DNA of 64,000 bases from an uncultured delta proteobacterium. GTDB lineage: Bacteria; Myxococcota_A; Polyangia; Fen-1088. Positions 6,100 through 39,017 of this stretch are shown here, piece after piece. The notes beneath the pieces were generated by a model. That model was not told where the DNA came from. It did no database searches and saw only the letters and a program-made list of their open reading frames with translations. Position 1 is the stretch's first letter, and every line of letters begins with the position of its first letter. The translations under genes and the position numbers were made by a program. The stretch lies in assembly GCA_963767925.1 (NCBI GenBank), contig CAVYGB010000013.1:132576-196575 (forward strand), in the 5' to 3' direction.

Positions 6100-7509
<1,410 letters not shown>

Positions 7510-7568
7510 CCTGCCCAGTTTAGCAGTCTGTGACCTCGATCGAACCGGCCCGAACCTGCCGAAGATCC

Positions 7569-24134: not shown

Positions 24135-26486
24135 TCAGGGCGCGGCCGGCGGCTGCGCGGCCGGCGGCTGCTCCGGCGGCGGCTGCTCCGGTGGCGACCC
24201 GGGGGGGGGCTGGGGCGGCACGGCGTCGAGCTCGCTCAAGGCCTGCTCCAGCTCGGTGGTGAGGGCCTCGGGGATCTCGCGCTCGCCGTAGCGGGCCGCG
24301 CCGTAGTGCTCGCTGAGCTGGCTGAGGGCGGCGTGCCCGGGCAGCGCCGCCGCCTTCAGGCGGGCGGCGAACTCGCGCGGCGTCTCGTCGGGCGCCCGGG
24401 TCCAGCCCCGCCGGGCCAGCCGGGTGAGGGTGCTCTGGTACAGGCGGTAGATGCGCGGCCCCCCGTGGCGCGTTCCGCGGGAGGTCCGGGTGAACGGGTT
24501 GGCCAGGCGCAGGCGCCCGCGCAGGAAGCGGACCAGCAGGTAGAGCAGGGTGGCTCCCCCGGCCGCGCCCAGCATCCAGCGCAGGATGCGCTTGGTCTCG
24601 CGCAGGTCGAAGCTGGCCTGCCCCACGCCCACGCCGCGGCCGATGCGGCGGGCGATGTCGATCTGCCGGCTGACGTCGTAGTCGATCACCCAGCGCGACC
24701 AGAAGAACTCCACCGAATCGAAGAGCTGGCGCACCCGCCCCATGCGCGAGCCGCGCCCCGCCGAGGGGGTGGCGTCGATGCGCACCCAGCCGGCCGGGCC
24801 GATGTAGGCCTCGACCCAGGAGTGGGCCCGGTTGTCGCGCACGGTGAGGTACTTGCTGATGCCGTTCCACTCGCCCCCGAGGAAGCCGTTGACGTAGCGG
24901 CTGGGCACCCCCGACAGGCGCAGCAAGACCGCCGCCGCCGAGGCGAAATATTCGCAGTGGCCCGCCCGCTGATTGAAGATGAAGTCCTCCAGGGGGTCGG
25001 CGATGCGTTTGTCCCGCTTGAGATCGGTGGTGTATTCGTGGGTCTTCTGCAGCCACTCGATGATGGCGAGCGCCTTGGCCATGGGCCCCGGCTTCCCCTC
25101 GGTGATCCGGCGGGCCAGCTCGCCCATCCGGGGGGACAGGGTGGGGGGCACCACCAGGTAGTTGTCGAGCCGGTTGCCGTCGGCCTGCAGCTCGGCGAGG
25201 GCCCGCCCGCGCCGGAACAGCGCCCGGCCACTGGGCAGCCGGGAGTAGGCGAAGTAGCGGGCCCCGGCGAAGTCGGTGACCCCCGAGCCGGGCGACGATC
25301 CGACCACCCGGGTCTGGCGCAGGCCCACCTCGCCGCCGTAGCGCTTGTCCATGGTCAGCTTGGTGAAGGCGCCGGGCGCGGGCGGGGGGACCCGGAAGGC
25401 CAGCGGCTCGTCGAGGGCGAAGGCCACCGGGTGCGACAGGCCCACCACGTTGATCTCCTGCTCCTCGAGGCCGGCGAGCTGGCGCTCCGAGCCCAGCCGG
25501 CGCAGGTCGTCCGGCGCCTCCGGGCTGCGCACCAGGTAGAGATCGCTGCCGTCCGAGGAGCCCGGCTCGTCGAGGATGGTGAGGCTGCCCCGGTTGCGCG
25601 AGCGCAGCCACTGCCCGTTGCTGTAGGTGTCGTAGACCGTGCCCCTCCAGTAGAGCAGCCCGATGGCGTTGTCCCGGGCGCCCTCCTCCTCGATCGTCTC
25701 CAGGCGGGGGACCCGCACCCACAACACGACGGTCTGGTTCTCGTTGGAGATGAGGCCGTGGTGGCCCAGCGTCACCTCGTCGGAGAAGCCCACGATGTTG
25801 ACTCGGCGGCGCAGGCCTCCCGAGAGGAAGCCGATGCCGACCCGGGGGATCACGGCGAACACCATGATCGCCCCCACGAACACGCCCACCGCCATCAGCC
25901 CGGTGGCCAGGAAAAACGGCCGCCCCACCACCCGCCGCGAGTTGAGCACCCGCGCCGCCGTCACCTTCTCCGAGCCGGCCTCGGGCAGGTGCTTGATGAG
26001 GTAGTTGTCCTCGATCTCGCGCCGCAGGTGAAACAGGATCAGCGTCCAGGTGGCGAGGATGACGTAGGTGACGAACCCGAACACGAAGACGATGCTCTGG
26101 GCGAGCCAGGCCGCCGCCAGCACCACCAGGAACGACAGGATGTAGATCTGGAGGTAGTCGCGGTTGTTGCGCCGGTGGAACAGCTTGTAGCCGAGCAGGA
26201 AGAGGACGACGTTGAGGATGGGGGTCAGCTCGGGCTCGGGGAAGCTGTCGATCACCTCGAACAGCGACAGCCCGAAGAAGGCCAGGGCCAGCACGTTGAA
26301 CACCAGCCCGGCCTTGTCGAGGAGCTGACCCATGGTGGTGCCGGCCTCGACGAACCAGGAGAGGGCGCCCAGCACGAACAGCAGGATCCAGGTGGTGGCG
26401 GGGACGCTGCCGGTGGCCATCAGCGTGCCGAGGGCCGCCGCCGCCAGCAGGTACGACATCAGCTTGTGGACCGCCCGGAACCTCAT
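24135..26486 (-). CDS. DUF3488 / transglutaminase-like membrane protein (TgpA family)
   Basis: N-terminal TM region; LYWRG..YD; catalytic GHCEYFAS, AHSWVE, W..IDATP; DUF4129-like ETPREFA...Y..ARYG. Confidence 0.9.
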   Translation of the reverse strand: MRFRAVHKLMSYLLAAAALGTLMATGSVPATTWILLFVLGALSWFVEAGTTMGQLLDKAGLVFNVLALAFFGLSLFEVIDSFPEPELTPILNVVLFLLGYKLFHRRNNRDYLQIYILSFLVVLAAAWLAQSIVFVFGFVTYVILATWTLILFHLRREIEDNYLIKHLPEAGSEKVTAARVLNSRRVVGRPFFLATGLMAVGVFVGAIMVFAVIPRVGIGFLSGGLRRRVNIVGFSDEVTLGHHGLISNENQTVVLWVRVPRLETIEEEGARDNAIGLLYWRGTVYDTYSNGQWLRSRNRGSLTILDEPGSSDGSDLYLVRSPEAPDDLRRLGSERQLAGLEEQEINVVGLSHPVAFALDEPLAFRVPPPAPGAFTKLTMDKRYGGEVGLRQTRVVGSSPGSGVTDFAGARYFAYSRLPSGRALFRRGRALAELQADGNRLDNYLVVPPTLSPRMGELARRITEGKPGPMAKALAIIEWLQKTHEYTTDLKRDKRIADPLEDFIFNQRAGHCEYFASAAAVLLRLSGVPSRYVNGFLGGEWNGISKYLTVRDNRAHSWVEAYIGPAGWVRIDATPSAGRGSRMGRVRQLFDSVEFFWSRWVIDYDVSRQIDIARRIGRGVGVGQASFDLRETKRILRWMLGAAGGATLLYLLVRFLRGRLRLANPFTRTSRGTRHGGPRIYRLYQSTLTRLARRGWTRAPDETPREFAARLKAAALPGHAALSQLSEHYGAARYGEREIPEALTTELEQALSELDAVPPQPPPGSPPEQPPPEQPPAAQPPAAP

Positions 26487-27526
26487 GCGCTCTTGCGCGC
26501 GCCTCCGCCGCCGAGGGTCTCGACCGTCGGTCCGCCCGCGCCTCCGCCCGGGCGCACGTGCACCCGGGCCAGGTTGCGGGTGGCCGCGCCGGGCAGGGGG
26601 CGGGCGGTCCCATTTTGCACCAGGGCCAGCGAGGAGAGGATCTGGTGGGCCTGCAAGGCGCCTCCGGCCGGTGGGATGAAGGCGCCGCCGGCGGCGAGCG
26701 CCACCTGGAACCCACGCTTGATGAGCTGCACCGCGATCGAGGCGGCCATCGACACCGCCGCCTCGAACCCGGCCGGATCGGCCCGGGCGTCGTCGTCCAG
26801 CACCACCACCACGCTGCGGCTGCTCTCGTCCTCCGACTCGCGGATGAAGTAGCGGCCCCGCCGGGCCGAGACCCGCCAGTGGATGTCGCGGGGGTCATCG
26901 CCCGTGCGGTACTCGCGCAGGCCGTAAAACTCGCCCCGCCGGTTGAGGCTCTTGGTCTGCTTGCGGCCGTGTTCGACCCGCCGGCCGAAGATCAGGTGGT
27001 CGGCCACCGGCACAAGCGCGGGGAAGACCAGCAGGCGGGCGGGCGCGTCCACGTCGCGCGACTTGCGGATGAGGCCGAAGGGAAAGCGGGTCGACAGCCG
27101 GAACCCGGTCAGCTCGTGGTACCCCCGCTGGGGCAAGATGTTGCGGTAGGCCGTCTCCTGCACGCGTCCCGCGGGCAGCTTGAGGTAATAGCAGCGCCGG
27201 TCGACCGGGCGCCCCGCCACCAGGTCCTCCACCTCGAGCGAGAAGGTCGGCAGGCGGCCCTTGTTGTTGCGCACGGCGATCCCCATCAGGTAGGGGGTGC
27301 CGGCGTGGATGGCGGCCGGTGGCCGGCGGGTCACCTCCAGCCCGCGCAGGCACAGCTCGGAGAGCACGCCGCTGGCCAGGATGAGGAAGATCATCATCCC
27401 GAACACGAGGAACAGCAGGTTGATGCCGCCGTTGACCGCGGCCGCGCCGACCAGCAGCGTGGCCAGCAGGAACCACCAGCCCTCGCGCGTCGGAGGGAAC
27501 CGTCGCGGGAAGCGGTACCGAGCCAT
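26483..27526 (-). CDS. DUF58 domain protein
   Basis: PTREGW, RFPFGL, EFYGLREYR.GDD.RDIHW..SAR, FE.AVS.AASI. Confidence 0.9.
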   Translation of the reverse strand: MARYRFPRRFPPTREGWWFLLATLLVGAAAVNGGINLLFLVFGMMIFLILASGVLSELCLRGLEVTRRPPAAIHAGTPYLMGIAVRNNKGRLPTFSLEVEDLVAGRPVDRRCYYLKLPAGRVQETAYRNILPQRGYHELTGFRLSTRFPFGLIRKSRDVDAPARLLVFPALVPVADHLIFGRRVEHGRKQTKSLNRRGEFYGLREYRTGDDPRDIHWRVSARRGRYFIRESEDESSRSVVVVLDDDARADPAGFEAAVSMAASIAVQLIKRGFQVALAAGGAFIPPAGGALQAHQILSSLALVQNGTARPLPGAATRNLARVHVRPGGGAGGPTVETLGGGGARKSA

Positions 27527-27539
27527 GGCCCCGCCCGTT

Positions 27540-28517
<978 letters not shown>

Positions 28518-28525
28518 TTGACCAA

Positions 28526-28534
28526 ATTATAACA
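28526..28534 (-). promoter_or_regulatory. Extended -10 promoter of the moxR operon (probably leaderless mRNA)
   Basis: TGTTATAAT ends 8 nt before the moxR ATG, with no Shine-Dalgarno in between. Confidence 0.6.
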
Positions 28535-28623
28535 GGAGGAGACGTAGCCCGGCACACCGGCGGCAGCGTCATTGCGGGTGTCATCTATGTGACGGTGCGG
28601 GCCAGCGCGCGCCGGAAGAACGC

Positions 28624-28676
28624 CGGGCGTACGTCGGGCGTACGTCGGGCGCACGTCGGGCGCACGTCGGGCGCGC
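28624..28676. repeat. Tandem repeat, 11-bp unit CGGGCGYACGT x ~4.8
   Basis: cgggcgtacgt cgggcgtacgt cgggcgcacgt cgggcgcacgt cgggcgcgc in the divergent moxR / cyclase intergenic region. Confidence 0.9.
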
Positions 28677-28848
28677 CCGGCGGCGGCCTCCCGGTCGATT
28701 CCCTTCATATAAAGGGTGAGATCCCGTCGGGCCGGGGCCGAGGATTCTCGCGACGCTCAGCTCGGGCTACATCCCTTCCGTTGCCGCTCGTTGGTGGGTG
28801 GGTGTGGTGCGGGCGCGGGCGGGCGCGCCGGTGTGCTAGAGGGAGGCG

Positions 28849-30756
28849 ATGTCGATCCTCGCCGTCGTCGCCGCGTGGGCCGACGATCCGGCGCGCCGCG
28901 ATCGGGCCCGCCGCATGATCGAGCCGCTGGCCGAGCGGGCTCCCGACGGCCGGGCCAGCGTCGAGGCTCCCGGCGCGGCGCTCGCCTTCGGCAAGCTCGT
29001 CGTCTCGCGCCGGCAGGGGCACGCCGCCCAGCCGCTCAGCGACGCGGCCGCCGGCCTTTACCTCGTCGCCGACGTGCGCATCGACAACCGCGACGAGCTC
29101 CGCCCGACGCTGGGGTTGCCCGCCGCCGCCACCGACGCCGAGCTCGTGCTGGCCGGCTACCGCCAGTGGGGCGTGGCCCTGCCCGATCACCTGGTCGGCG
29201 ACTTCGCCTTCGCCGTGTGGGACGCCCGGGCCCGCCGCCTGTTCGCCGCCCGCGATCCCTTCGGCGTGCGCCCGCTTTATTACCGCCGCCTGCCCGATGG
29301 GGCGCTGCTCGTCGCCTCCGACGTCGAGTCGATCCTGGCCGTCGATCCCGGCGCCTGGAAGGTCGACGACCAGGCGGTGATCGACCACCTGCTGTCGGCC
29401 TGGCCCAGCCCCGAGCGGACCTTCTGGGAGCCGATCCGGGCGCTGCCCGCCGGCCATGCGCTGCTGGCCAGCGCCGCTGACTGCCAGGTGCAGCGCTGGT
29501 GGCGCCCGCCCGCCGTGCCCGCGATCCTCGCCGACCACGAGACCTGTTACCGGGAGCTGCGCCGCCGCCTGCGCCAGGCGGTGGCCGACCGCCTCGACGC
29601 CGACCACCCGGTCCTCGTCCACCTCAGCGGCGGCTTCGACTCGACCGCCATCGCCACCCTGGCCGGCACGATCGAGGCCCGGGCGCCCCTGCGCGCGGTC
29701 GGCGCCGTCTACCCCGGCCTGGGCTGCGACGAGTCCCTCTACATGGACGCGGTCCGGGCGCGCCTGCCGTACCCCACCGAATACTGGGACGGCACCCGCC
29801 CGCTGTCCCTCGATCTGGACGCGCCCGCGCTGGCCGGGCCCGGCCTGCGCACCTGCCTCAACGACGGCACCCGGGGGGATCAGGAGATCGCCCGCAGGGA
29901 AGGAGCGCGGGCGGTGCTCTCCGGTCTGGGCGGCGACGTCTGGCAGCCCTGCAACGAGAGCCAGCGAGACTACCTGCGCCGGGGCCACTGGCGGCAGCTC
30001 TGGCAAGCGGCGTTCATGCGCCCCGGAATGTCCTGGGGAGGCAGGGCGCGGGTGCTGCGCTGGTCGCTCGGTCAGGAGACGCCGGAGGCGATCCGCGCGC
30101 TCGGCCGCCGCCTCCGCCGCCGGGCGCCCGCCGCGGCCCCGCCCTGGCTGGCGCGGCCAGCCACGCGCGATCCGCTGCCCCCCGCGCCCGAAGCGCAGGC
30201 CCTGGCGCGCTCACACGGGCTGGCCCAGGCCCGCCGCCTGCTCGATCTCGGCGGGCCGCGGCCGGTGCACGCGCTCGCGCGGATGCAGGTCGTCGCGGCG
30301 GCCAACCAGGTCGAGATGCGCTTTCCCTTCCTCGACGTGCGCCTGGTCGACCTGCTGTGGCGGCTGCCCCTCACCATCTGGGGCCCACCCGGATACCCGG
30401 CGCGCCTCCACCCCCTGGTGCTGCGCGACCTGCTGCCCCCCGAGGTGACGTCGCGCCGCTGGAAGACGGATTTCTCGGCCGCGCTGGCCGCCCGGGCCGC
30501 GCTGGCCTGGCGGGCGCTGCGGGCCCGCTCCGACCCGCCCGGTCACCTTCTCCTCGAACGCTACTGCCGGGGCTCCCACATCGCCGCGCTCGCCGGCGCC
30601 GACCTGCCGCAATCGCCGCTAAAAGCCGATCGCTGGAGCGAGATCTGGCGCCTGGCCGTCCTTGAGGCCTGGCTGGAGATGGTCTATGGTCAGGCCCGCA
30701 GTCGCCTAACTTCGAGGGGGGAACATGGACACTGGCCCGAAAGCAACAATCGTTGA
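28849..30756 (+). CDS. Lasso peptide cyclase (asparagine synthetase-like, C protein)
   Basis: RIDNR.EL, L.GDFAF..WD, ARD.FG.RPLYY, HLSGGFDST, LSG.GGD, R.PFLD. Begins MSI rather than the MCG of glutamine-hydrolysing AsnB. GGGAGG RBS; adjacent to precursor, B2 and RRE genes. Confidence 0.88.
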   Translation: MSILAVVAAWADDPARRDRARRMIEPLAERAPDGRASVEAPGAALAFGKLVVSRRQGHAAQPLSDAAAGLYLVADVRIDNRDELRPTLGLPAAATDAELVLAGYRQWGVALPDHLVGDFAFAVWDARARRLFAARDPFGVRPLYYRRLPDGALLVASDVESILAVDPGAWKVDDQAVIDHLLSAWPSPERTFWEPIRALPAGHALLASAADCQVQRWWRPPAVPAILADHETCYRELRRRLRQAVADRLDADHPVLVHLSGGFDSTAIATLAGTIEARAPLRAVGAVYPGLGCDESLYMDAVRARLPYPTEYWDGTRPLSLDLDAPALAGPGLRTCLNDGTRGDQEIARREGARAVLSGLGGDVWQPCNESQRDYLRRGHWRQLWQAAFMRPGMSWGGRARVLRWSLGQETPEAIRALGRRLRRRAPAAAPPWLARPATRDPLPPAPEAQALARSHGLAQARRLLDLGGPRPVHALARMQVVAAANQVEMRFPFLDVRLVDLLWRLPLTIWGPPGYPARLHPLVLRDLLPPEVTSRRWKTDFSAALAARAALAWRALRARSDPPGHLLLERYCRGSHIAALAGADLPQSPLKADRWSEIWRLAVLEAWLEMVYGQARSRLTSRGEHGHWPESNNR

Positions 30757-30937
30757 GCCTGGCGAGGGTCAGCCGGCCCCGGCCTCGATCCCGTACGAGC
30801 CGCCGGCCGTCGTCCCGCTCGGCAACGTGCACGAGCTGCTCGCGGGCGCCGGCAGCCGGACCTTCGACGCCATGATGGACACCCCGTCCTGCGGGACCTC
30901 GGGCGGCCGGTTCGACAACCCCCAGATGGGTTGCTAG
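30725..30937 (+). CDS. Lasso peptide precursor (A); predicted core GAGSRTFDAMMDTPSCGTSGGRFDNPQMGC
   Basis: GAGGGGG RBS. Leader Y(-17)xxP(-14)xV(-12)xxxG(-8) has exact lasso spacing; core starts Gly1 with Asp at position 8; gene lies between cyclase and B2 protease. Confidence 0.85.
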   Translation: MDTGPKATIVEPGEGQPAPASIPYEPPAVVPLGNVHELLAGAGSRTFDAMMDTPSCGTSGGRFDNPQMGC

Positions 30938-30971
30938 CGGGGGGCCCGGGCTGCTCCCCGGCGCGACCCGC

Positions 30972-31367
30972 GTGACCGCCGCCGCGACGCTGCTGGCGCG
31001 CCTGCGCGCGGCCGCCGCCGACCTGTTGCAGGTGGCCGTCCTCGCGGTGCCCGTCGACCGGGCCCGCAGGCAAGAGGGCCCGCGCGATCTGATCGCCCGC
31101 CTGCGCCAGCGGGGCCGCCGCTTCTCCCCGCGAGACGCCGCCCGCCGGGCCGCCCTGCAGCGGGCGATCGCCCGGGTCGACCGCCTCTTCCCGGGTGGAC
31201 CCAACTGCTACCGGCGCGTCCTCCTGGAGATCGCCCTCGACGGCGGCGCTGCCCGCGAGCCGATCTCCTTCGGCCTGCGGGCGGGAGGTGGCCCCGGGTC
31301 GGGGCACGCCTTCCTCGGCAGCGAGCCCCCTCCCTCGTCGAGCTACGACGCCGTCTTCGACCTGTAG
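30972..31367 (+). CDS. Lasso peptide leader protease (B2, transglutaminase-like)
   Basis: RAIARVDRLFPGGPNCYRRVL...ISFGLR...GHAFL matches the B2 pattern (C at the CLxx position, FG, HAW-like His). Confidence 0.78.
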   Translation: MTAAATLLARLRAAAADLLQVAVLAVPVDRARRQEGPRDLIARLRQRGRRFSPRDAARRAALQRAIARVDRLFPGGPNCYRRVLLEIALDGGAAREPISFGLRAGGGPGSGHAFLGSEPPPSSSYDAVFDL

Positions 31368-32365
31368 ACCGCCAGCGCCCCGGCCAGCGCGGCCAGCCCG
31401 GCCGGCGCGCGGGCCCGCTCGCTCCGGACCAGCGCCCCCAGCGCCTGGCCGCTGGCGACGAACCGGCGCAGGCTCTCCGCTTCCTGGCGGCCCAGGAAGG
31501 TCGCCAGCAAGATGTCCCGCAGCGCCTCCGCCGCCGGAAGCGGCTCGGTCTCGAAGGCCGGCGCCCCCCGCCTCCCCGCGTCCAGGAAGATCAGCCTGGC
31601 GAGCGGGACCGCCGGCTGCCCGGCCGCCTGCGCCAGCCCCGCGCAGTCGAGCGGCTGATCGGGCTGCAGCGCCAGCGCGCGGGCGGCCTCCGCGCACCAG
31701 GCGTAGATCTCTTTCTCGGCCTCCGGGTGGCCCCAGGCCCGCCCGTCTCCGGCCGAGACCACCAGCAGCTCGTCGGTCCGCTTCGGCGTCTCGGGGGCGT
31801 CGAGCAGGCGGGCCACGGTGGACTTGCCGGCCCCGCTGGCGCCGCAGAAGGCGGTCAGCGCGCCCCCGATCTGACAGCTCGAGGCGTGAAGCACCAGGAG
31901 CCCCTGGGCGGCCAGGATCTTGGGGGCCAGCAGCCGCAGCCCGTGCTCGAGGGCGATCGGCAGCTCCTCGGGGCCGACGAGCAGGCGGAGATGACGGCCG
32001 TCACGGTCGATGCCGAGCAGCGCCCGCCCCCGGACGACCAGCGCGTATCCCCCCTCGGCCGGGCGGTAGGGGAGCTCGTCCGTCCAGACCGGCTCGCGGC
32101 GGGCGCTGGCCAGGGCGTCGCGCACGCCGGCCAGCGCCGCGCGGGCCTGCTCGGGCGACAGGCCCCAGTGCCGGCGGGTGGCCGCCAGGACCTCCTCCCA
32201 CGAGCCGCTCTCGGTGATGAACCGGCAGACCGCGGCCGCGCTGGCGTTGAGCGAGGAGTAGGTGCCGCTGTCGAGATCGAGGGCCAGTCCCCCTCCGGAA
32301 AACAGGGCGAAAACGTGGCGCGTGACAAATTCCTGGATCGGCTCGGAGGCAGCAGAGACGTTCAC
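31343..32365 (-). CDS. RRE(PqqD)-fused HPr kinase-related P-loop kinase
   Basis: N-terminal LALDLDSGTYSSLNASAAAV...EQARAAL (PqqD-like); C-terminal LVLHASS, Walker A GASGAGKST, and TDE at the HPrK DD position. GTG start coupled to the RRE stop. Confidence 0.8.
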   Translation of the reverse strand: MNVSAASEPIQEFVTRHVFALFSGGGLALDLDSGTYSSLNASAAAVCRFITESGSWEEVLAATRRHWGLSPEQARAALAGVRDALASARREPVWTDELPYRPAEGGYALVVRGRALLGIDRDGRHLRLLVGPEELPIALEHGLRLLAPKILAAQGLLVLHASSCQIGGALTAFCGASGAGKSTVARLLDAPETPKRTDELLVVSAGDGRAWGHPEAEKEIYAWCAEAARALALQPDQPLDCAGLAQAAGQPAVPLARLIFLDAGRRGAPAFETEPLPAAEALRDILLATFLGRQEAESLRRFVASGQALGALVRSERARAPAGLAALAGALAVYRSKTAS

Positions 32366-32655
32366 CGCAGCCTCTCGGCCAGACCGCTGGTCTCGAGCTC
32401 GACGCCGAAGCGGCCCACGTCGGACCGGAGCCGGTCGGGCGGGACGTCGAGGCTGACCTGCAACTCGGCGCACACCTCCTCGAGCGTGCGCAGGCCATCG
32501 AGCCGGCTCCAGACCTCGGCGCCGACCTGGTTGAGCTCGAAGCAGCCGCCGGTGCGGCCGTCGAGCAGCAGCGCCTTCTCGGGCAGCCGGCGGCACTCGA
32601 CCCCGTCACGCCGTCGCAGCCGGAGGGCCAGGATCGAATCCGACGAATCCGACAT
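32362..32655 (-). CDS. PqqD-family RiPP recognition element (lasso B1)
   Basis: 97 aa at the end of a shadow ORF: ALLLDGRTGGCFELNQVGAEVWSRLDG.RTL.EV...L....DV....L..DV..F...L...GL. Confidence 0.88.
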   Translation of the reverse strand: MSDSSDSILALRLRRRDGVECRRLPEKALLLDGRTGGCFELNQVGAEVWSRLDGLRTLEEVCAELQVSLDVPPDRLRSDVGRFGVELETSGLAERLR

Positions 32656-32690
32656 TGCCTGCGGCCATCGTACCATCGGGGGCGAGCGGG

Positions 32691-32705
32691 GTGCACTGGT
32701 TGCAC
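32691..32705. promoter_or_regulatory. Candidate palindromic operator in divergent promoter region
   Basis: GTGCA-N5-TGCAC between a minus-strand TGGTACGAT -10 (hexamer at 32667-32672) and a plus-strand TTGACG (32706-32711). Confidence 0.3.
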
Positions 32706-32784
32706 TTGACGACCGTCGGGGATTCTGTCGTCCTGATACCGACATCCTGTGCCGTTCAGCGCACTTATGACGAAAGGAAAGCCT

Positions 32785-35700
32785 ATGCGCAGCCCTCGGA
32801 GGGACCCTGGTGACCGGAGGCCTGGTCTCGTGTCGGCGCGGATCGCGCCGGCGTCCCTCGTCCTGCTGGCGCTGGTCGGCTGTGGCGCTGGCAGCGCCCC
32901 CCCGGCGCCGCCGCCCGCCGCCGCCGAGGGCGCCGCGCGCCCGCCCGCCACCCGGCCGGGGTGGCTGGCGGAGGTGCGCGAGGCGGTCGCCGCCGGCGAA
33001 TACCGGATCCGAGGGCAGGGGACCACCTTCGAGGCCGTCAACCGCTTGCAGGGCCTGCGCGCCCGCTGGTCGCGGGGCGAGCTGGGGGTGGCGGCGCGGA
33101 CCGGCCATGGTGCGGATCGCGCCGAGACCATCAAGCTGCGCACCGTCGGTCTGGTCGGCCGAGGTGGGGCCAGGGCCGCCGCCGGCCCGCACCACCTGGG
33201 CGACTGTGGCGGGCTCGCCGTCAAGGACGAGAACGGCCAGTGCCTCCGGCGCCTCGAGCGCGCGGGGAACGGCCTCGTCGAGCGCTGGGAGAACCGGCCC
33301 GACGGCCTCGCCCACAGCTTCCTGGTCTCGCCGCCTCCCGCTGGCGCCCGACCCGGGGCCGACGGCTGGCTGGCGATCGAGGTCGCGGTCACCGGCGCGC
33401 GGGTCGAGCTCGCCGCCGGCAGCACCAGCGCCGAGCTGATCGGCAAAGGTGGCCAGCGCCTGCGCTACGCCGGCCTCGCCGCCTGGGACGCCGACGAGAA
33501 GCGCCTGCCGGTGCGCATGCGCCGCGCGGCCGGAGGGATCCGGCTGGAGGTCGACGATCGGGGGGCTCGCTATCCGCTGCTCGTCGATCCGGTGCTGACC
33601 GCGGGGGCCTGGACCTCGGAGGGCAACCAGGCCGACGCCGGCGTGACGATGGTGGTGGCCGGCGCGGGCGACGTGAACAACGACGGGTTCGACGACGTGC
33701 TCGTCTCGTTCCCCCGCTACGACGGCGGCGGCACCGACGCCGGCGTCGTGTACCTCTATTTCGGATCGGGGACCGGACCCGACACAACCGCCGACTGGAC
33801 CTCGCAGGGGACCAGCGCGGCCGGGGCGGCGGCGGCCAGCGCCGATTCGCGCTTCGGCAACTCGATCGCCGGGGCCGGCGACGTGAACAACGACGGCTTC
33901 GCGGACGTGATCATCGGCCAGCCCCGCTTCAGCAACGGCCAGACCTTCGAGGGCCGGGCCTACCTCTTCCCGGGCTCGGCGGCCGGCCTGCCGGCCGTCC
34001 CCGCCTGGACGGTGGAGAGCGATCAGGCCAACGCCTTCCTGGGGCTGACGGTGGCCGGCCTCGGCGACATCAACGGGCCAGCGGGCGGGGCCAGCTTCGA
34101 CGACGTGGCGGTGACCGCCGGGTCGTTCGACAGCAACGGGCTCACCGACAACGGCCGGGTGCTGGTCTACCTCGGCGCGGCCGGCGGCCTGGCGGCCGCC
34201 CCCTCCGACACCATCGACGGCGCCTTCTCGGCCTTCGGCCTCGGCACCCTGGCCGCCTCCGCCGGGGACGTCAACGGCGACGGCCGCAGCGACGTCATCC
34301 TGGCCTCGCCCTACTACAGCAACGGCGAGATGGACGAGGGCATCGCCTACGTCCACCTCGGTCGCGCCGACGGCACGCTCGAGCGGACCGGGGCCTTCAC
34401 CTTCGAGACCAACGAGGCGGGCGCCCCCATCACCTCGGTCGCCGGCGTGGGTGACGTCAACGGGGACGGCTACGCCGACGTGGCCCTGGGCGTCCCGGGC
34501 AAGAACAACGGTGTCTCGGACGAGGGCGCCGTCCTGTTCTTCGCCGGCTCGGCCAGCGGGCTGGTGGCGGTCCCCACGATCCTCGGATCCAGCGACGGCG
34601 GCTCGAGCTTCGGCGTCACGGTGGCGGGACCGGGCGACGTCAACGGCGACGGCTACGCCGACATCGCCGTCGGGGCCTATCGCCGGGATACGCCCGGGCT
34701 GGCCAACGTCGGCAGCGTGACCCTGATCGCCGGCTCGCGCGGCGGGCCGGCCATCACCGCCGCTACGCTTGCTGACACAATCCTGTACGGCATCGCCGCC
34801 GAAGACAACCTGGGCAACGCCCTGGCGGGTGCCGGCGACGTCAACGGGGACGGCTACGCCGACGTGATCGCCGGGTCCACCGGGGCCGACAACGGCCAGG
34901 CCAACGAGGGGCGGGCCTCGATCTACTTCGGCTCGGCCAATACCAGCGGGCTGCGCGCGCTCAGCGATCTCGGGATCGAGAGCAACACCGCGGGCGCCGG
35001 GCTGGGGACGGCGCTGTCGGCAGCGGGCGATCTGAACGGCGACGGCTTCGGCGACTTCGTCGTGGCGGCGCCCAGCTTCGGCGGGGCCAACAACGGCACG
35101 GTGTTCGTCCACCTCGGCGCGGTGGGCGGGCCGGATGGCACGGCCGACGGCACCTTGACCGGGCCAGCGGGGGCCGGCTTCGGCGAGGCGGTGGCCGCGG
35201 CCGGGGACGTCAACGGCGACGGCTTCGCCGATCTCCTGGTCGGCGCCCCCAACTTCGGGGACGGGCAGGTCGACGAGGGGCGGATCTATCTCTATCCGGG
35301 GGCCAGCGGCGGCATCACCGCGGCCACTGTCCCGGTCACCTTCGACAGCAACGTCGCCGGGGCCCTGCTGGGCTCGGCGGTGGGCGCGGCCGACGTCAAC
35401 GGCGACGGCCTGTCCGACGTGGCGGCCGGGGCTCCCGGGCTGGCCAACGGACAGGTCGGCGAGGGGCGGGTCTACGTTCTGCGCGGCAGCCTGGCCGGCC
35501 TGACGACCGCCAGCCCGATCACGGTGGAGAGCGACCTCGCCCTCTCGCGCTTCGGCGCCGCGCTGGCCGGAGTCGGGGACGTGAACGCCGACGGCTACGC
35601 CGACCTCGCGGTCGGGGCGCCGGGCTACAGCAACGGGGAGATCGGGGAGGGTCGCCTCTACATCTATCCCGGCAGCGCCGCCGGCCTCGGCGCGCCCATC

Positions 35701-37785
35701 ACCCGGGAGGTCGACGTGGCGGGCGCCGCGCTCGGCACCTCGGTGGCCGGCGCGGGCGACGCCGACGAGAACGGCTACGCCGACGTGATCGCGGGCGCCC
35801 CCGGATCGAACAGCGGGGCCGGGGTTGTCTACGTCTACGAGGCGACCGCCGCGGGGGTCACCGACACCCCCTTCTCCTACGCCTCGGCGGTGGCCGGCGC
35901 CAGCCTGGGCGCCGCGGTGGCGGGGGCGGGTGACCTCGACAACGACGGCGTGGGCGACGTTGTCGTGGGCGCGCCCGGCTACGCCAACGGCCAGGCCGGC
36001 GAGGGGGCCCTCTACGTCTTCCTCTCGGGCGGCACGGTGCTGCCCGGCATGCCTTCGGCGATCATCGAGGGTGGGACGGCGGACCTCCGCCTGGGCAGCG
36101 CGGTGGCCGGCGCCGGCGACCTCAACGGCGACGGCGTGAGCGACGTCGTGGTGGGCGCGCCGGGCTACGCCAGCGGGCAGGCCGGCGAGGGCCGGGCCCT
36201 CGTGCACCTGGGGAACACGAACGGCCGGCCCTATCGGCTGCGCGCCCTGCGGCCGGGGACCAGCACCCCGGTGCAGGCGGGCAACGTCGTGCCGAGCTCG
36301 ATGGCCGCCTTCGACATCGCGATCTTCGCCACCGGCCCGCTCGGGATCACCAACGTGCGGCTCGAGACCGAGGTCAAGCCGGTGGGCGTGCCCTTCGACG
36401 GCAACGGCACCGTGCTCGACCCCGGCTTCACCAGCACCGGGCTCGCTGGCGTGACCCTCACCCGCAGCGTCACCGGCCTGGCCGGGCGCACCCGTTACCA
36501 CTTCCGGGCGCGCCTCCATTACGACCCGGCCCAGCGCACGCTGCTCGGCCTGACCACCCCCTGGATCAACGGGGGCGCGCTGGGCGACGCCGGCGGCGTC
36601 CACCTGCGCACCGACGGGGTGGGCCTGGGGACCGCCTGCACCATGGCCAGCGACTGCGGCTCGGGCTTCTGCGTGGACGGGGTCTGCTGTGACACCGACT
36701 GTGGCGGCGGCGCGACCGGCGACTGCCGGGCCTGCACCATGGCGGCCGGTGGCACCCTGGCCAGCGGCATCTGCAGCGACCGGGCGGTCGCCGCCACCTG
36801 CAGCGACGGCAACGGCTGCACGGCCGCCGACACCTGTCAGGCGGGCGGCGTCTGCCAGCCCGGGACTGCGGTCACCTGCACGGCGATGTCCCAGTGCCAC
36901 GACCTGGGGGTGTGCAACCCCGCGACCGGCATGTGCACCAACCCGACCAAGGCCGACGGCACCACCTGCAACGACAACAGCATGTGCACGACCGGCGAGA
37001 CCTGCCAGGCGGGGGCCTGCGCCAGCGGCACCGCCACCGTCTGCCCGCCGATGTCGACCTGCCACGACCCGGGCGTCTGCAACCCGGGCACCGGCACCTG
37101 CTCCACCCCGGTCAAGGCGGACGGGTCGTCATGCAGCGACGGCAACCTGTGCACGCAGACCGACACCTGCACGGCGGGCGTGTGCAACGGCGCCAACCCC
37201 GTGACCTGCGCCGCTCCCAACGCCTGCCAGGATCCCGGCACCTGCGTGGCCGCCACCGGCCTCTGCAGCTACCCGCCCAAGCCCGACGGCACCGCCTGCA
37301 GCGACGGAAACCTGTGCACGGGCACGGACGTTTGCACGGCCGGGTCCTGCGTGGGCCCCGCCGTGGACTGCAATGACGGCAACGTGTGCACCACCGACAC
37401 CTGCGTCCTCGCCACCGGCTGCGTGCGCACGCCGGTGGTCGGCTGCGTGCCGACCGACGGCGGCGCTGACGCCTCGGGCGACGGGCCCCGCGACGGCGCG
37501 GGGGATGGGGCCGGCGACGCCTCGGGCGACGGGGCCCGCGACGGCGCCTCCGGTGACGCCCGCCCGGCCGATGGCGCGACCGGCGACGCCCGCGACGCCG
37601 CCCGGGACACCACCTCCGCCGATCGCCCCGCCGACACGCGAGCCAGCGACGGCGGCGCGTCCATCCGGCGGGTCGGGGGCGGCGGCGGCTGCGACTGCGA
37701 CGTCGGGCGCGGCCAGGGCACCCTGCAGGCACCCCTGCTGCTGCTCGGCCTCGGGCTGATCTGGTACCGGCGGCGCCGCCGCTAG
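32785..37785 (+). CDS. Large surface protein: FG-GAP (integrin alpha-like) repeats, Cys-rich repeats, MYXO-CTERM-like sorting signal
   Basis: AAAGGA RBS; lipobox-like LVG-C; more than ten AGDVNGDGYAD(V/L)xVGAP repeats; C.DGN.CT..D.C repeats; Asp/Gly/Ala linker; tail GGGGCDCDVG...LLLLGLGLIWYRRRR. Confidence 0.88.
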   Translation: MRSPRRDPGDRRPGLVSARIAPASLVLLALVGCGAGSAPPAPPPAAAEGAARPPATRPGWLAEVREAVAAGEYRIRGQGTTFEAVNRLQGLRARWSRGELGVAARTGHGADRAETIKLRTVGLVGRGGARAAAGPHHLGDCGGLAVKDENGQCLRRLERAGNGLVERWENRPDGLAHSFLVSPPPAGARPGADGWLAIEVAVTGARVELAAGSTSAELIGKGGQRLRYAGLAAWDADEKRLPVRMRRAAGGIRLEVDDRGARYPLLVDPVLTAGAWTSEGNQADAGVTMVVAGAGDVNNDGFDDVLVSFPRYDGGGTDAGVVYLYFGSGTGPDTTADWTSQGTSAAGAAAASADSRFGNSIAGAGDVNNDGFADVIIGQPRFSNGQTFEGRAYLFPGSAAGLPAVPAWTVESDQANAFLGLTVAGLGDINGPAGGASFDDVAVTAGSFDSNGLTDNGRVLVYLGAAGGLAAAPSDTIDGAFSAFGLGTLAASAGDVNGDGRSDVILASPYYSNGEMDEGIAYVHLGRADGTLERTGAFTFETNEAGAPITSVAGVGDVNGDGYADVALGVPGKNNGVSDEGAVLFFAGSASGLVAVPTILGSSDGGSSFGVTVAGPGDVNGDGYADIAVGAYRRDTPGLANVGSVTLIAGSRGGPAITAATLADTILYGIAAEDNLGNALAGAGDVNGDGYADVIAGSTGADNGQANEGRASIYFGSANTSGLRALSDLGIESNTAGAGLGTALSAAGDLNGDGFGDFVVAAPSFGGANNGTVFVHLGAVGGPDGTADGTLTGPAGAGFGEAVAAAGDVNGDGFADLLVGAPNFGDGQVDEGRIYLYPGASGGITAATVPVTFDSNVAGALLGSAVGAADVNGDGLSDVAAGAPGLANGQVGEGRVYVLRGSLAGLTTASPITVESDLALSRFGAALAGVGDVNADGYADLAVGAPGYSNGEIGEGRLYIYPGSAAGLGAPITREVDVAGAALGTSVAGAGDADENGYADVIAGAPGSNSGAGVVYVYEATAAGVTDTPFSYASAVAGASLGAAVAGAGDLDNDGVGDVVVGAPGYANGQAGEGALYVFLSGGTVLPGMPSAIIEGGTADLRLGSAVAGAGDLNGDGVSDVVVGAPGYASGQAGEGRALVHLGNTNGRPYRLRALRPGTSTPVQAGNVVPSSMAAFDIAIFATGPLGITNVRLETEVKPVGVPFDGNGTVLDPGFTSTGLAGVTLTRSVTGLAGRTRYHFRARLHYDPAQRTLLGLTTPWINGGALGDAGGVHLRTDGVGLGTACTMASDCGSGFCVDGVCCDTDCGGGATGDCRACTMAAGGTLASGICSDRAVAATCSDGNGCTAADTCQAGGVCQPGTAVTCTAMSQCHDLGVCNPATGMCTNPTKADGTTCNDNSMCTTGETCQAGACASGTATVCPPMSTCHDPGVCNPGTGTCSTPVKADGSSCSDGNLCTQTDTCTAGVCNGANPVTCAAPNACQDPGTCVAATGLCSYPPKPDGTACSDGNLCTGTDVCTAGSCVGPAVDCNDGNVCTTDTCVLATGCVRTPVVGCVPTDGGADASGDGPRDGAGDGAGDASGDGARDGASGDARPADGATGDARDAARDTTSADRPADTRASDGGASIRRVGGGGGCDCDVGRGQGTLQAPLLLLGLGLIWYRRRRR

Positions 37786-38150: not shown

Positions 38151-39017
38151 TCAGCGGGGACGCCGGGTCAGGCGTTCCCGCAGCCAGGGCAAGCCGTAGG
38201 TCGCCGCCACCCGGGGCAGGGCGCTGGGTCGGTCGGAGAGCAGGGGCTTGAGGACCAGGTGGCGCAGGTAGCGGGACACGCCCGCCCGCAGGTGGAGCTG
38301 GGGACGGGTGGCCACCCAGCGCTCCACCAGATGCCGCCGCAGCCGCAGCGGCCGGTGCCGCTCGAGCGCGAGCGGTGGGATGGCGCTGCCGCCGGCCCGC
38401 AGGGTATCGGCCAGCAGGACCAGGGGCAGGCTCAGCGCCGCGCGCCGGGCGCGCGCCTCGCACAGGTCCCAGTCGATCGGCTGCCGGGCCAGCAAGTGGC
38501 GGCAGTCGGCGGTGTGCCGGTCGTCGAGCGCGTAACAGTGGTTGGCGTGGTGGGCGGCGGCGTAGAGGATCTGGTCCTCCGCGCACAGCGAGAGGATCGG
38601 CCCATCGACGCTGTCCCAGGCCACCGCCCGGGCCAGCAGCTCGCGGGGGGCCAGCTCGAACCAGACCGGCTCGGTGAGGCCGCGGTGTAGATCGACCGTG
38701 AGGGCCCCCGCCGGCGGCTGGAAGGTCCACTCCTTGTGTCCGAAGTAGCGGTCGTAGGCCGTGGCGCCGTTGAAGTCGTAGCGCTGGAACCCGCGCGCCG
38801 TCAGCTCCGTCGCGAAGGCGGCGAAGGCCTCCGGCTGCACGAGGATGTCGACGTCGCAGCCGGTGCGCGCGCCCCGGCCGCCGTACAGCACCGGGTCGGC
38901 CCAGGCGGCCTTGAGGTAGACCACCTTGCTGCCGACCTTGCGCCCGATCTCGTCCAGCGCGCCCCGCTGGGCCTTGATGAGCAGGCTCTGGACCAGGCCG
39001 GCGTTGCTTGCCTTCAC
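38151..39017 (-). CDS. Nucleotidyltransferase family protein (NTP_transf_5-like)
   Basis: YLKA......LY.....R...DVDILV, VDLH..L, and LC.ED.ILY.A.H...H; family known to accompany kinase-bearing lasso clusters. Confidence 0.82.
   Translation of the reverse strand: MKASNAGLVQSLLIKAQRGALDEIGRKVGSKVVYLKAAWADPVLYGGRGARTGCDVDILVQPEAFAAFATELTARGFQRYDFNGATAYDRYFGHKEWTFQPPAGALTVDLHRGLTEPVWFELAPRELLARAVAWDSVDGPILSLCAEDQILYAAAHHANHCYALDDRHTADCRHLLARQPIDWDLCEARARRAALSLPLVLLADTLRAGGSAIPPLALERHRPLRLRRHLVERWVATRPQLHLRAGVSRYLRHLVLKPLLSDRPSALPRVAATYGLPWLRERLTRRPR

What the first reader, a model, noticed from the sequence alone, without database searches (positions are those of the whole stretch)
30725..30937. 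Precursor predicts a rare class IV (tail-tail disulfide) lasso with Leu replacing the near-invariant Thr-2
Seen: Y24-P27-V29-G33 fall exactly at -17/-14/-12/-8 if the core starts at G41 (nt 30845). The 30-aa core GAGSRTFD-AMMDTPSC-GTSGGRFDNPQMGC gives a Gly1-Asp8 ring, and both cysteines (C16 and terminal C30) lie in the tail. Position -2 is Leu (CTC, two substitutions from a Thr codon, so not a single-base error). Known: Thr-2 is highly conserved in lasso leaders, and a disulfide wholly within the tail defines the uncommon class IV. Inference: a disulfide loop in the tail could lock the threaded state, and Thr-based predictors may miss this peptide.
Basis: partly seen in the sequence, partly recalled or inferred. 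Interest (0 to 1): 0.82.

Follow-up and report, generated by a model that had tools for sequence, protein, structure and literature searches.

The report
Leu(-2) lasso peptide precursor, two cysteines
This small gene is a genuine lasso-peptide precursor from a soil myxobacterial lineage in which leucine regularly replaces the usual threonine next to the cleavage site, and its product is probably also disulfide-bridged in the tail and phosphorylated in the ring.

Summary
ORF 30725-30937(+) encodes a 70-aa peptide with Y24/P27/V29/G33 at -17/-14/-12/-8, Leu39 (CTC) at -2, and a 30-aa core with Gly1, Asp8, Cys16 and Cys30. It lies between a lasso cyclase and a B2 protease. A stand-alone B1 and an RRE-kinase fusion converge on the other strand. 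Across genomes and metagenomes, 82 unique related precursors carry Leu (77) or Val (5) at -2. Each has 0 (39) or 2 (43) cysteines, never an odd number: 24 ring-tail and 19 tail-tail pairs. In cyclase relatives from other phyla, 59 of 65 candidate precursors have Thr(-2). The stand-alone B1 has Cys or Val in 15 of 17 cases, and never Tyr, at the column where TfuB1 Tyr33 lies; all 6 Thr(-2) clusters keep Tyr. I read this as a new variant of a known kind. Nothing has been shown chemically.

The parts
28849..30756 (+). Lasso cyclase (C), asparagine-synthetase-like, 635 aa. Its 3' end overlaps the precursor start by 32 nt.
   Evidence: PF00733 1.6e-27 and GATase_7 2.8e-24. The best NCBIfam hit is NF033535, lasso isopeptide cyclase: 250.4 bits, E 4e-74, below the curated cut-off of 525. 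Homologs sit directly upstream of the precursor in 16 of 18 related family loci; the other two are cut by contig ends.
30725..30937 (+). Precursor peptide (A), 70 aa. Leader is 30725-30844 (40 aa, Y-17 P-14 V-12 G-8 L-2 A-1). Core is 30845-30934 (30 aa, Gly1, Ser4, Asp8, Cys16, Cys30). Stop is 30935-30937.
   Evidence: Homologous precursors.
30972..31367 (+). Leader peptidase B2 (transglutaminase-like cysteine protease), 131 aa from GTG 30972. The start codon is inferred.
   Evidence: PF13471 at 21.8 bits (cut-off 26) for the window protein; 17 of 19 family members hit PF13471, best E 1.7e-8. Cys79 and His112 are invariant in 19 aligned sequences and the C-terminal YDA motif is mostly kept. 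No PDB sequence match.
31343..32365 (-). Fusion of an RRE (PqqD-like domain) with an HPr-kinase-like kinase, 340 aa from GTG 32365-32363. The start overlaps the stop of the B1 gene (GTGA).
   Evidence: PqqD 23.2 bits at residues 28-86. A profile of 17 homologs hits TfuB1 6jx3_B (3.7e-12), TbiB1 5v1u (4.8e-11) and HprK 1jb1/2qmh (6.3e-5). AF2 model: pLDDT 89, pTM 0.85. Foldseek gives PEP carboxykinase and HprK/P folds. The H-x15-G-x2-G-x-GKS-x15-acidic pair matches the BsfK motif spacing given in PMC10368454 section 23. The window has D-E where 15 of 17 have E-D and 1 has D-D.
32362..32655 (-). Stand-alone B1 (RRE, PqqD family), 97 aa from ATG 32655. An in-frame ATG at 32675 is an alternative start.
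   Evidence: PF05402 at 55.9 bits, E 5.3e-15, above the cut-off of 23.4. NF033530 lasso PqqD chaperone 2.7e-8. Found by HMM and read. A B1 lies directly upstream of the fusion gene on the same strand in 13 of 18 related loci.
38151..39017 (-). PF14907 nucleotidyltransferase (possible 'N' tailoring gene). Tentative part, separated from B1 by the FG-GAP gene at 32749-37785(+).
   Evidence: PF14907 at 83.6 bits. Homologs of 54% and 40% identity lie directly upstream of B1 in L117 and L134. Only these 2 strong hits and 2 weak ones among the 35 loci searched.

Best explanation
The ORF is the precursor of a lasso peptide made by a five-gene cluster in a 73% G+C genome. The cyclase's closest titled relatives are a Myxococcales MAG and a Polyangia MAG.

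Proposed pathway; every chemical step is inferred. The leader's Y-x-x-P-x-V motif is bound by PqqD-type RRE domains. One RRE is fused to an HPr-kinase-like domain, which probably phosphorylates a ring Ser/Thr of the linear precursor. Ser4 is the best candidate. The model is BsfK/BsfB1 of Bradymonas, which phosphorylates ring Ser3. The stand-alone B1 presents the leader to the B2 cysteine protease, which cuts after Ala40. The S2 pocket for Leu(-2) is enlarged because B1 carries Cys where Thr(-2) systems carry Tyr (TfuB1 Tyr33). The cyclase joins Gly1 to Asp8 around the tail. After oxidation, Cys16 and the C-terminal Cys30 close a 15-residue loop in the tail. That gives a class IV-type lasso in which the loop cannot pass back through the 8-residue ring.

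The cluster is a vertically inherited trait of one myxobacterial family. It is also common in metagenome contigs.
For: Gene content.

Architecture: C-A-B2 faces the RRE-kinase gene in all 18 family loci examined, with B1 just upstream of the fusion in 13 of 18.

Family spread: precursor hits in 36 of 89 genomes of the family.

Leader: 77 Leu and 5 Val at -2 among 82 unique precursors. -1 is Ala in 30 of 31 and Asp is at core 8 in 27 of 31.

Contrast: 59 of 65 regex-defined precursors next to cyclase relatives from other phyla have Thr(-2). The single Leu case is a Myxococcales MAG of this same family.

Cys parity: 43 with two, 39 with none, none odd; 0 of 100000 shuffles. 19 tail-tail pairs have spacing 8-14. 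The second Cys lies 0-4 residues from the C-terminus in all 43.

Other lineages: tail-tail pairs also occur in Ile/Val(-2) precursors of another class of the phylum, for example L168 with Cys16 and Cys30 in a 30-aa core.

S2 covariation: the stand-alone B1 column equal to TfuB1 Tyr33 reads Cys 13, Val 2, Thr 1, Ser 1 and Tyr 0 of 17 in Leu/Val(-2) loci. It reads Tyr in 6 of 6 Thr(-2) loci. The Tyr33 mapping comes and passages of bioRxiv 10.1101/2022.04.06.487251.

Kinase target: Ser/Thr at core 4 or 5 in 71 of 82.

Literature: BsfK phosphorylates ring Ser3 and needs BsfB1 (PMC10368454, sections 22-25 read). In McjB the Thr(-2) pocket includes a B1-domain residue, and enlarging the pocket rescues a bulkier -2 residue (PMC11420955, passages).
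Against: No chemistry or expression data exist. No RNA holder was listed. The published bsf cluster stayed silent in five heterologous hosts (PMC10368454, section 22).

The cluster holds no exporter or thiol oxidoreductase, so where and whether the disulfide forms is open.

The window's kinase has D-E at the catalytic acidic pair where 15 of 17 relatives have E-D and BsfK has D-D, so it may be impaired.

The cyclase and the window's own B2 score below the curated family cut-offs.

In BsfA, an I(-2)L change nearly abolished cleavage (PMC10368454, section 25), so Leu is not generally tolerated.

The parity and covariation counts come from related sequences and overstate independence. The covariation is imperfect in the Ile(-2) lineage: 3 Cys, 1 Leu, 1 Tyr of 5.

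Kinase homologs also accompany Thr(-2) clusters, so the kinase and a non-Thr(-2) residue are not strictly linked.

The same-genus genome G001 (86% complete) gave no hit.
Confidence: 0.8

Rival explanations
1. It is a lasso precursor, but the two cysteines stay reduced or serve another role such as metal binding or another cross-link. The mature product would then be a class II (plug-stabilised) lasso, with or without phosphate.
For: No oxidoreductase or exporter in or beside the cluster. 39 of 82 family members have no cysteine, so the scaffold does not need a disulfide. [quoted passage not shown]
Against: Cysteines occur strictly in pairs: 43 with two, none with one or three, 0 of 100000 shuffles. 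The second Cys is always within 4 residues of the C-terminus. The ring-tail subgroup copies the class III pattern.
Confidence: 0.25
2. The leader/core boundary is elsewhere, for example one residue earlier or later. In that case Leu is not at -2, or the ring is not Gly1-Asp8.
For: A few relatives outside the family (L169/L188, L167; leader ending VLG, VLA or LVG followed by Lys) fit better if the cut is one residue earlier. Residue 1 is not Gly in 6 of 31. No cleavage has been mapped.
Against: The distance from Tyr(-17) to the acceptor Asp is fixed. Asp is at core 8 in 27 of 31 and Ala at -1 in 30 of 31. Thr(-2) relatives in the same class align Thr exactly with this Leu (L022, L030). In BsfA the same register was confirmed by MS (PMC10368454, section 24).
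Confidence: 0.08
3. The cluster is a decaying or silent remnant, and the peptide is not made in this organism.
For: The acidic pair of the window's kinase is swapped (D-E). A 5-kb FG-GAP gene separates B1 from the nucleotidyltransferase gene that adjoins B1 in L117 and L134. One relative (L133) has a broken fusion gene. The genome is 84% complete with 5% contamination.
Against: All five reading frames are intact. The B2 Cys/His and the kinase P-loop are kept. The B1 stop and the fusion start overlap as GTGA, typical of coupled translation. The precursor has a strong Shine-Dalgarno-like GAGGGGGG.
Confidence: 0.12

Closest known systems
bsf lasso cluster of Bradymonas sediminis FA350 (Duan et al. 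2023, PMC10368454; abstract and sections 22-25 read)
   Same: Same phylum in the present taxonomy. Leader with YxxPxL at -17 to -12 and a hydrophobic, non-Thr residue at -2. Gly1-Asp8 ring. HPr-kinase-like enzyme with the same H/G/G/G/K/S/acidic-pair motif spacing. The RRE is needed for the kinase. There is a Ser/Thr in the ring.
   Different: -2 is Leu here, not Ile. BsfA I(-2)L was barely cleaved, so the pocket must differ. Here one RRE is fused to the kinase and a second B1 stands alone; in bsf, B1 and K are described as separate proteins. The candidate phosphosite is Ser4 or 5, not Ser3. The window core has a Cys pair. No D transporter lies in the cluster. I did not compare the bsf sequences directly, because they were not available as tool sequences.
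Class IV lasso peptides: LP2006, felipeptins A1/A2, pandonodin (PMC7689547 and PMC13352647, passages read)
   Same: One disulfide with both cysteines in the tail, an 8-residue Gly1-acidic ring, and the second Cys at the C-terminus (felipeptins C13-C17).
   Different: The predicted loop is 15 residues (Cys16-Cys30), against 5 in felipeptins. The leader has Leu(-2). A kinase is present. The producer is a myxobacterium rather than an actinomycete or Pandoraea. The felipeptin cluster has its own oxidoreductase FilE; none is present here.
C-terminally phosphorylated lasso peptides: paeninodin, ThcoK/SyanK substrates, pseudomycoidin (review PMC8498205, passages read)
   Same: An HPr-kinase homolog sits in a lasso cluster and acts on the linear precursor. 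A PF14907-type nucleotidyltransferase is sometimes associated.
   Different: Those kinases modify a C-terminal Ser. The window peptide ends in Cys, and only a minority of relatives end in Ser, so the target must be internal.
Class III lasso peptides (BI-32169; PMC13352647, passage read)
   Same: 24 of 82 family members have a Cys in the ring next to the acceptor Asp, plus one near the C-terminus. This is the ring-tail pattern.
   Different: The window peptide belongs to the tail-tail subgroup, not this one.

Membership tests
Lasso peptide biosynthetic system (RiPP) | Short precursor with a leader and a core, encoded beside the maturation genes | tested here: met
   70-aa ORF between C and B2. 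The same position holds in related loci.
Lasso peptide biosynthetic system (RiPP) | Leader recognition motif YxxPxL at -17 to -12, bound by a PqqD-type RRE (B1) | tested here: met
   Y24, P27 and V29, with Val in place of Leu. Stand-alone B1 hits PF05402 at 55.9 bits. The fused RRE profile matches TfuB1 and TbiB1. Binding itself was not tested.
Lasso peptide biosynthetic system (RiPP) | B2 cysteine protease of the transglutaminase-like superfamily with a catalytic Cys and His | tested here: met
   Cys79 and His112 are invariant in 19 sequences. 17 of 19 hit PF13471. The window protein alone is below the cut-off: 21.8 against 26 bits.
Lasso peptide biosynthetic system (RiPP) | Asparagine-synthetase-like lasso cyclase | tested here: inconclusive
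   PF00733 and the GATase domains are clear. The best NCBIfam model is the lasso cyclase NF033535, but at 250 bits against a cut-off of 525. Context supports the assignment.
Lasso peptide biosynthetic system (RiPP) | Acidic acceptor at core position 7-9 and a small residue at position 1 | tested here: met
   Gly1 and Asp8. Asp8 in 27 of 31 relatives and Asp9 in 4.
Lasso peptide biosynthetic system (RiPP) | Threaded (rotaxane) topology of the product | not testable with these tools
   Needs MS/MS, protease and heat assays, or NMR.
Canonical lasso leader | Thr at the penultimate leader position (94% of predicted precursors, according to PMC11420955) | tested here: not met
   Leu39, codon CTC. 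77 Leu and 5 Val of 82 relatives.
Class IV lasso peptide | Exactly two cysteines, both in the tail | tested here: met
   Cys16 and Cys30 of the core, both after Asp8.
Class IV lasso peptide | The two cysteines form a disulfide in the mature product | not testable with these tools
   Indirect support only: strict 0-or-2 Cys parity in 82 relatives.
Ring-phosphorylated lasso peptides (bsf type) | HPr-kinase-like enzyme with the H, G, G, G, K, S, D, D motif | tested here: inconclusive
   The spacing is identical and the residues are kept except the last acidic pair, D-E in the window (motif from PMC10368454, section 23). HprK and PEPCK matches by sequence profile and by fold.
Ring-phosphorylated lasso peptides (bsf type) | Conserved Ser/Thr in the ring as the acceptor | tested here: met
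   Ser4 and Thr6 in the window. Ser/Thr at core 4 or 5 in 71 of 82 relatives. Phosphorylation itself was not tested.

The most novel reading that the evidence does not exclude
A whole myxobacterial family of lasso peptides uses a re-coded S2 pocket: B1 Tyr is replaced by Cys, paired with leader Leu(-2). It also uses two RREs, one hard-wired to a kinase. The window's product would be a ring-phosphorylated (possibly further nucleotidyl- or glycosyl-modified) lasso. Its C-terminal Cys is tied back to Cys16, closing a 15-residue tail macrocycle. If the lactam ring encircles a segment of that macrocycle rather than sitting above it, the peptide would have an interlocked two-ring topology not described for natural lasso peptides.
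Probability: 0.15. Interest if true: 0.75.

Novelty: new variant of a known kind. Interest (0 to 1): 0.52.

Why it matters
Thr(-2) is used as a landmark for finding lasso precursors and for engineering leader peptidases. A natural lineage of at least 82 distinct precursors uses Leu or Val instead, and it shows a matching Tyr-to-Cys/Val change in B1. This gives a natural experiment on how the S2 pocket is built from B1 and B2. It suggests a testable pair swap: L(-2)T with B1 Cys-to-Tyr. It also widens mining rules.

The family offers many candidates for the rare class III and IV topologies in Gram-negative soil bacteria. It joins three features that have so far been studied separately: non-Thr leaders, ring phosphorylation and disulfide locking. 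The RRE-kinase fusion fits the published finding that BsfK depends on BsfB1.

Tried and rejected
Word-indexed protein search with the precursor found only the window's own peptide. It was uninformative, so I used six-frame genome searches instead.

Single-sequence and profile PDB searches for B2 found nothing meaningful.

The promoter and terminator scan of 28400-32900 found none. Sigma-70 consensus is a poor model for this organism.

Sequencing runs: one DNA holder with a small share (0.10) and no RNA holder listed. I did not lay reads, so this says nothing about expression or habitat.

Word-indexed search with the RRE-kinase fusion returned only 3 relatives, all named 'hypothetical protein'. 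It cannot show how widespread the fusion is.

I first read the cluster as having a single RRE, the fused one, serving both kinase and protease. One search rejected this by revealing the stand-alone B1, hidden in a long spurious open frame.

I first thought the kinase might be specific to non-Thr(-2) clusters. This was rejected because kinase homologs also lie beside Thr(-2) precursors (L130, L135, L200, L201, L203).

Complex prediction was not used. RRE-leader is a textbook pair and a pass would not have changed my odds.

Literature: no natural Leu(-2) lasso leader was found in the held library. Kretsch et al. 2023 (PMC10126823) and Zhu et al. 2016 (PMC4919450) are not held, and supplements are closed. 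A Leu(-2) case or an RRE-kinase fusion could therefore be listed there, including in the supplementary figures S2, S14 and S16 of PMC10368454.
Full report
**1. The observation**

The + strand ORF 30725-30937 translates to a 70-residue peptide ending in Cys. GAGGGGGG lies a few bases before the ATG. A script check confirms Y24, P27, V29 and G33. It also confirms Leu39 at -2, Gly41 as core residue 1, Asp at core 8, and Cys at core 16 and 30.

**2. Surroundings**

The window is 73% G+C, so long spurious frames are common and I relied on family searches.

- **Cyclase (C).** Upstream on the same strand, 28849-30756 encodes an asparagine-synthetase-like protein. It hits PF00733 (1.6e-27) and GATase_7 (2.8e-24). 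Its best NCBIfam match is the lasso isopeptide cyclase NF033535, at 250 bits, below the curated 525.
- **Protease (B2).** Downstream, 30972-31367 encodes a 131-aa protein with a weak PF13471 match. In an alignment of 19 family members, Cys79 and His112 are invariant, and 17 of 19 members hit PF13471.
- **RRE-kinase fusion.** On the minus strand, 32365-31343 encodes a 340-aa protein with an N-terminal PqqD-like domain and a P-loop domain. A profile of 17 homologs matches the lasso RREs TfuB1 (3.7e-12) and TbiB1 (4.8e-11), and it matches HPr kinase (6.3e-5). An AlphaFold2 model (pLDDT 89) finds PEP-carboxykinase and HprK/P folds.
- **Stand-alone B1.** An HMM scan of the window revealed a second RRE hidden at the end of a long spurious frame. 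It is a stand-alone B1, from ATG 32655 to stop 32364-32362, and hits PF05402 at 55.9 bits. Its stop overlaps the GTG start of the fusion gene.

The cluster therefore has five genes: C, A and B2 on one strand, converging on B1 and the RRE-kinase fusion on the other.

A PF14907 nucleotidyltransferase gene lies at 38151-39017(-). Its homologs sit directly upstream of B1 in two related loci. In the window a 1678-aa FG-GAP repeat gene lies between it and B1. Nearby genes include MoxR, DUF58, a TgpA-like transglutaminase, ETF subunits and CarD. I found no exporter or thiol oxidoreductase.

**3. Relatives**

The cyclase's closest titled relatives in genome contigs are a Myxococcales MAG (46% identity) and a Polyangia MAG.

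Six-frame searches with the precursor, and then with alignments of it, found matches as follows:

- 36 of 89 genomes of the window's own family.
- 32 of 401 sampled genomes of the class.
- 22 of 401 sampled genomes of the phylum.

In 18 family loci that I extended, B2 and the kinase gene are present and convergent in all 18. The cyclase is present in 16; the other two are cut by contig ends. A stand-alone B1 sits directly upstream of the fusion gene in 13 of 18. A MoxR gene (77-81% identity) and an ETF gene (72-84%) recur a few kb away in several loci. This points to a fixed chromosomal site and vertical descent.

A metagenome scan with the B2 alignment gave 80 loci. 69 of them had a precursor, 54 of those unique.

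**4. What the family shows**

The 31 unique genome-derived precursors read as follows:

| Position | Residues |
|---|---|
| -2 | Leu 28, Val 3 |
| -1 | Ala 30, Leu 1 |
| Core 1 | Gly 25, six other residues once each |
| Acceptor | Asp at core 8 in 27, at core 9 in 4 |

The union with the metagenome set holds 82 unique precursors:

- Leu 77 and Val 5 at -2.
- Two cysteines in 43 and none in 39. None has one or three.
- None of 100000 shuffles of the pooled core residues gave a set without an odd count. These sequences are related, so this is not a true probability.
- The pairs fall into two types. In 24, a Cys sits in the ring just before the acceptor Asp and the other near the C-terminus; this is the class III pattern. 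In 19, both are in the tail with spacing 8-14; this is the class IV pattern, to which the window belongs with spacing 14.
- The second Cys is 0-4 residues from the C-terminus in all 43.

Tail-tail pairs also occur in Ile/Val(-2) precursors of another class of the phylum. One of these also has a 30-residue core with Cys16 and Cys30 (L168).

Outside the lineage the picture differs. Of 79 loci around cyclase relatives from other phyla, 55 have regex-defined precursors. That gives 65 candidates, of which 59 have Thr at -2. The single Leu case is a Myxococcales MAG of this same family. Within the window's class, another family has Thr exactly where this family has Leu (L022, L030). This fixes the register.

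**5. The pocket for residue -2**

Published work places part of the S2 pocket on the RRE.

- Mutation of TfuB1 Tyr33 abolishes cleavage without affecting leader binding (bioRxiv 10.1101/2022.04.06.487251, passage).
- Tyr33 of FusE is suspected of contacting Thr(-2) (PMC10368454, section 25).
- In McjB a B1-domain residue and three B2-domain residues line the pocket, and enlarging it partly rescues a T(-2)M precursor (PMC11420955, passages).

I mapped Tyr33 onto the family profile using the printed alignment to chain 6jx3_B. The offset of 9 was checked against Val24, Leu26 and Gly31. I then read that column in all RRE domains:

| RRE group | Residue at the Tyr33 column |
|---|---|
| Stand-alone B1, Leu/Val(-2) loci (17, window included) | Cys 13, Val 2, Thr 1, Ser 1, Tyr 0 |
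| Thr(-2) loci (6) | Tyr 6 |
| Ile/Val(-2) loci of the other class (5) | Cys 3, Leu 1, Tyr 1 |
| Kinase-fused RRE (18) | Tyr 10, Phe 3, others 5 |

The window's stand-alone B1 has Cys. The loss of the bulky Tyr thus tracks the larger hydrophobic -2 residue, and it does so in the RRE expected to work with B2. Only a few independent lineages are involved, so this is suggestive rather than proof.

**6. The kinase**

The closest characterised system is the bsf cluster of Bradymonas sediminis (PMC10368454; abstract and sections 22-25 read). It has an Ile(-2) leader and a Gly1-Asp8 ring. Its HPr-kinase-like BsfK phosphorylates ring Ser3 of the linear precursor and is strongly stimulated by BsfB1.

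The window's fusion protein reproduces the BsfK motif spacing (H, then 15 residues, G-x-x-G-x-G-K-S, then 15 residues, then the acidic pair). The pair reads D-E in the window, E-D in 15 of 17 relatives and D-D in one.

Ser or Thr stands at core position 4 or 5 in 71 of 82 family precursors. The window has Ser4 after Gly3, and Thr6. The peptide ends in Cys, so the C-terminal-Ser mode of paeninodin-type kinases (review PMC8498205, passages) does not apply. I infer ring phosphorylation, probably at Ser4.

In other myxobacterial lineages B1 and the kinase are adjacent but separate genes. Kinase homologs also accompany Thr(-2) precursors. The fusion, together with an extra stand-alone B1, marks this lineage and two neighbouring ones (L197, L199).

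**7. Mechanism and verdict**

*Shown by sequence:*
- A complete lasso gene set.
- A conserved Leu/Val(-2) leader.
- A fixed Gly1/Asp8 register.
- Paired cysteines.
- An intact kinase P-loop.

*Inferred:*
- RRE binding.
- Phosphorylation.
- Cleavage after Ala40.
- Gly1-Asp8 lactam formation and threading.
- The Cys16-Cys30 disulfide, and its role as a lock.

How the peptide is exported, where it is oxidised and what it does are unknown.

Non-Thr(-2) leaders (Ile, Val, predicted Ala) and ring phosphorylation are in print. I found no report of a natural Leu(-2) lineage, of an RRE-kinase fusion, or of class III/IV-type cysteine pairs in this kind of cluster. Two key papers and all supplements could not be seen.

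I rate it a new variant of a known kind, of moderate interest.

Noticed in passing
L012, L014, L018, L031 (genome loci) and several of L204-L283: Family precursors with a non-Gly residue at predicted core position 1 (Glu, Asn, His, Met, also Ala, Ser, Thr, Leu, Gln, Asp, Ile, Lys). They keep Asp at position 8 and the same leader register. A 2025 paper called Asn1 unprecedented (PMC12670498, passage).
   Followed up: partly
window 32749-37785 (+): A 1678-aa FG-GAP repeat protein (13 FG-GAP stretches) lies between the stand-alone B1 and the PF14907 gene. FG-GAP-like stretches also lie near the lasso genes in 8 related loci, but at varying positions.
   Followed up: partly
window 24135-28526 (-): A TgpA-like transglutaminase (919 aa), a DUF58 protein and a MoxR-type AAA ATPase form an upstream minus-strand block. 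The MoxR gene recurs at 77-81% identity near the lasso cluster in 5 related loci.
   Followed up: partly
L133 (G352:C7) 6970-7931: The RRE-kinase fusion gene of this relative is split into three pieces in different frames, so it is probably broken. Its precursor, B2 and cyclase look intact.
   Followed up: no
L131 (G018:C240) 4758-6038: The stand-alone B1 and the RRE-kinase fusion lie in one open frame with no stop between them, giving a possible tandem-RRE kinase.
   Followed up: no
L169/L188 (G315) and L167 (G093): Variant leaders end in VLG, VLA or LVG and are followed by Lys. A cut one residue earlier would give a Gly/Ala1-Asp8 ring. These loci also carry the RRE-kinase fusion.
   Followed up: no
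G001 (same genus as the window): No precursor match in the only other genome of the genus (86% complete, 870 contigs), although 36 of 89 genomes in the family have one.
   Followed up: no
window 30725-30756: The cyclase reading frame runs 32 nt into the precursor gene. In relatives the cyclase ends about 25 nt before the precursor start.
   Followed up: no
P0011 (relative of the fusion protein): A 231-aa relative carries a precomputed Pfam label, PF27840, that is absent from the Pfam copy searched here. The kinase part may already have a new Pfam family.
   Followed up: no
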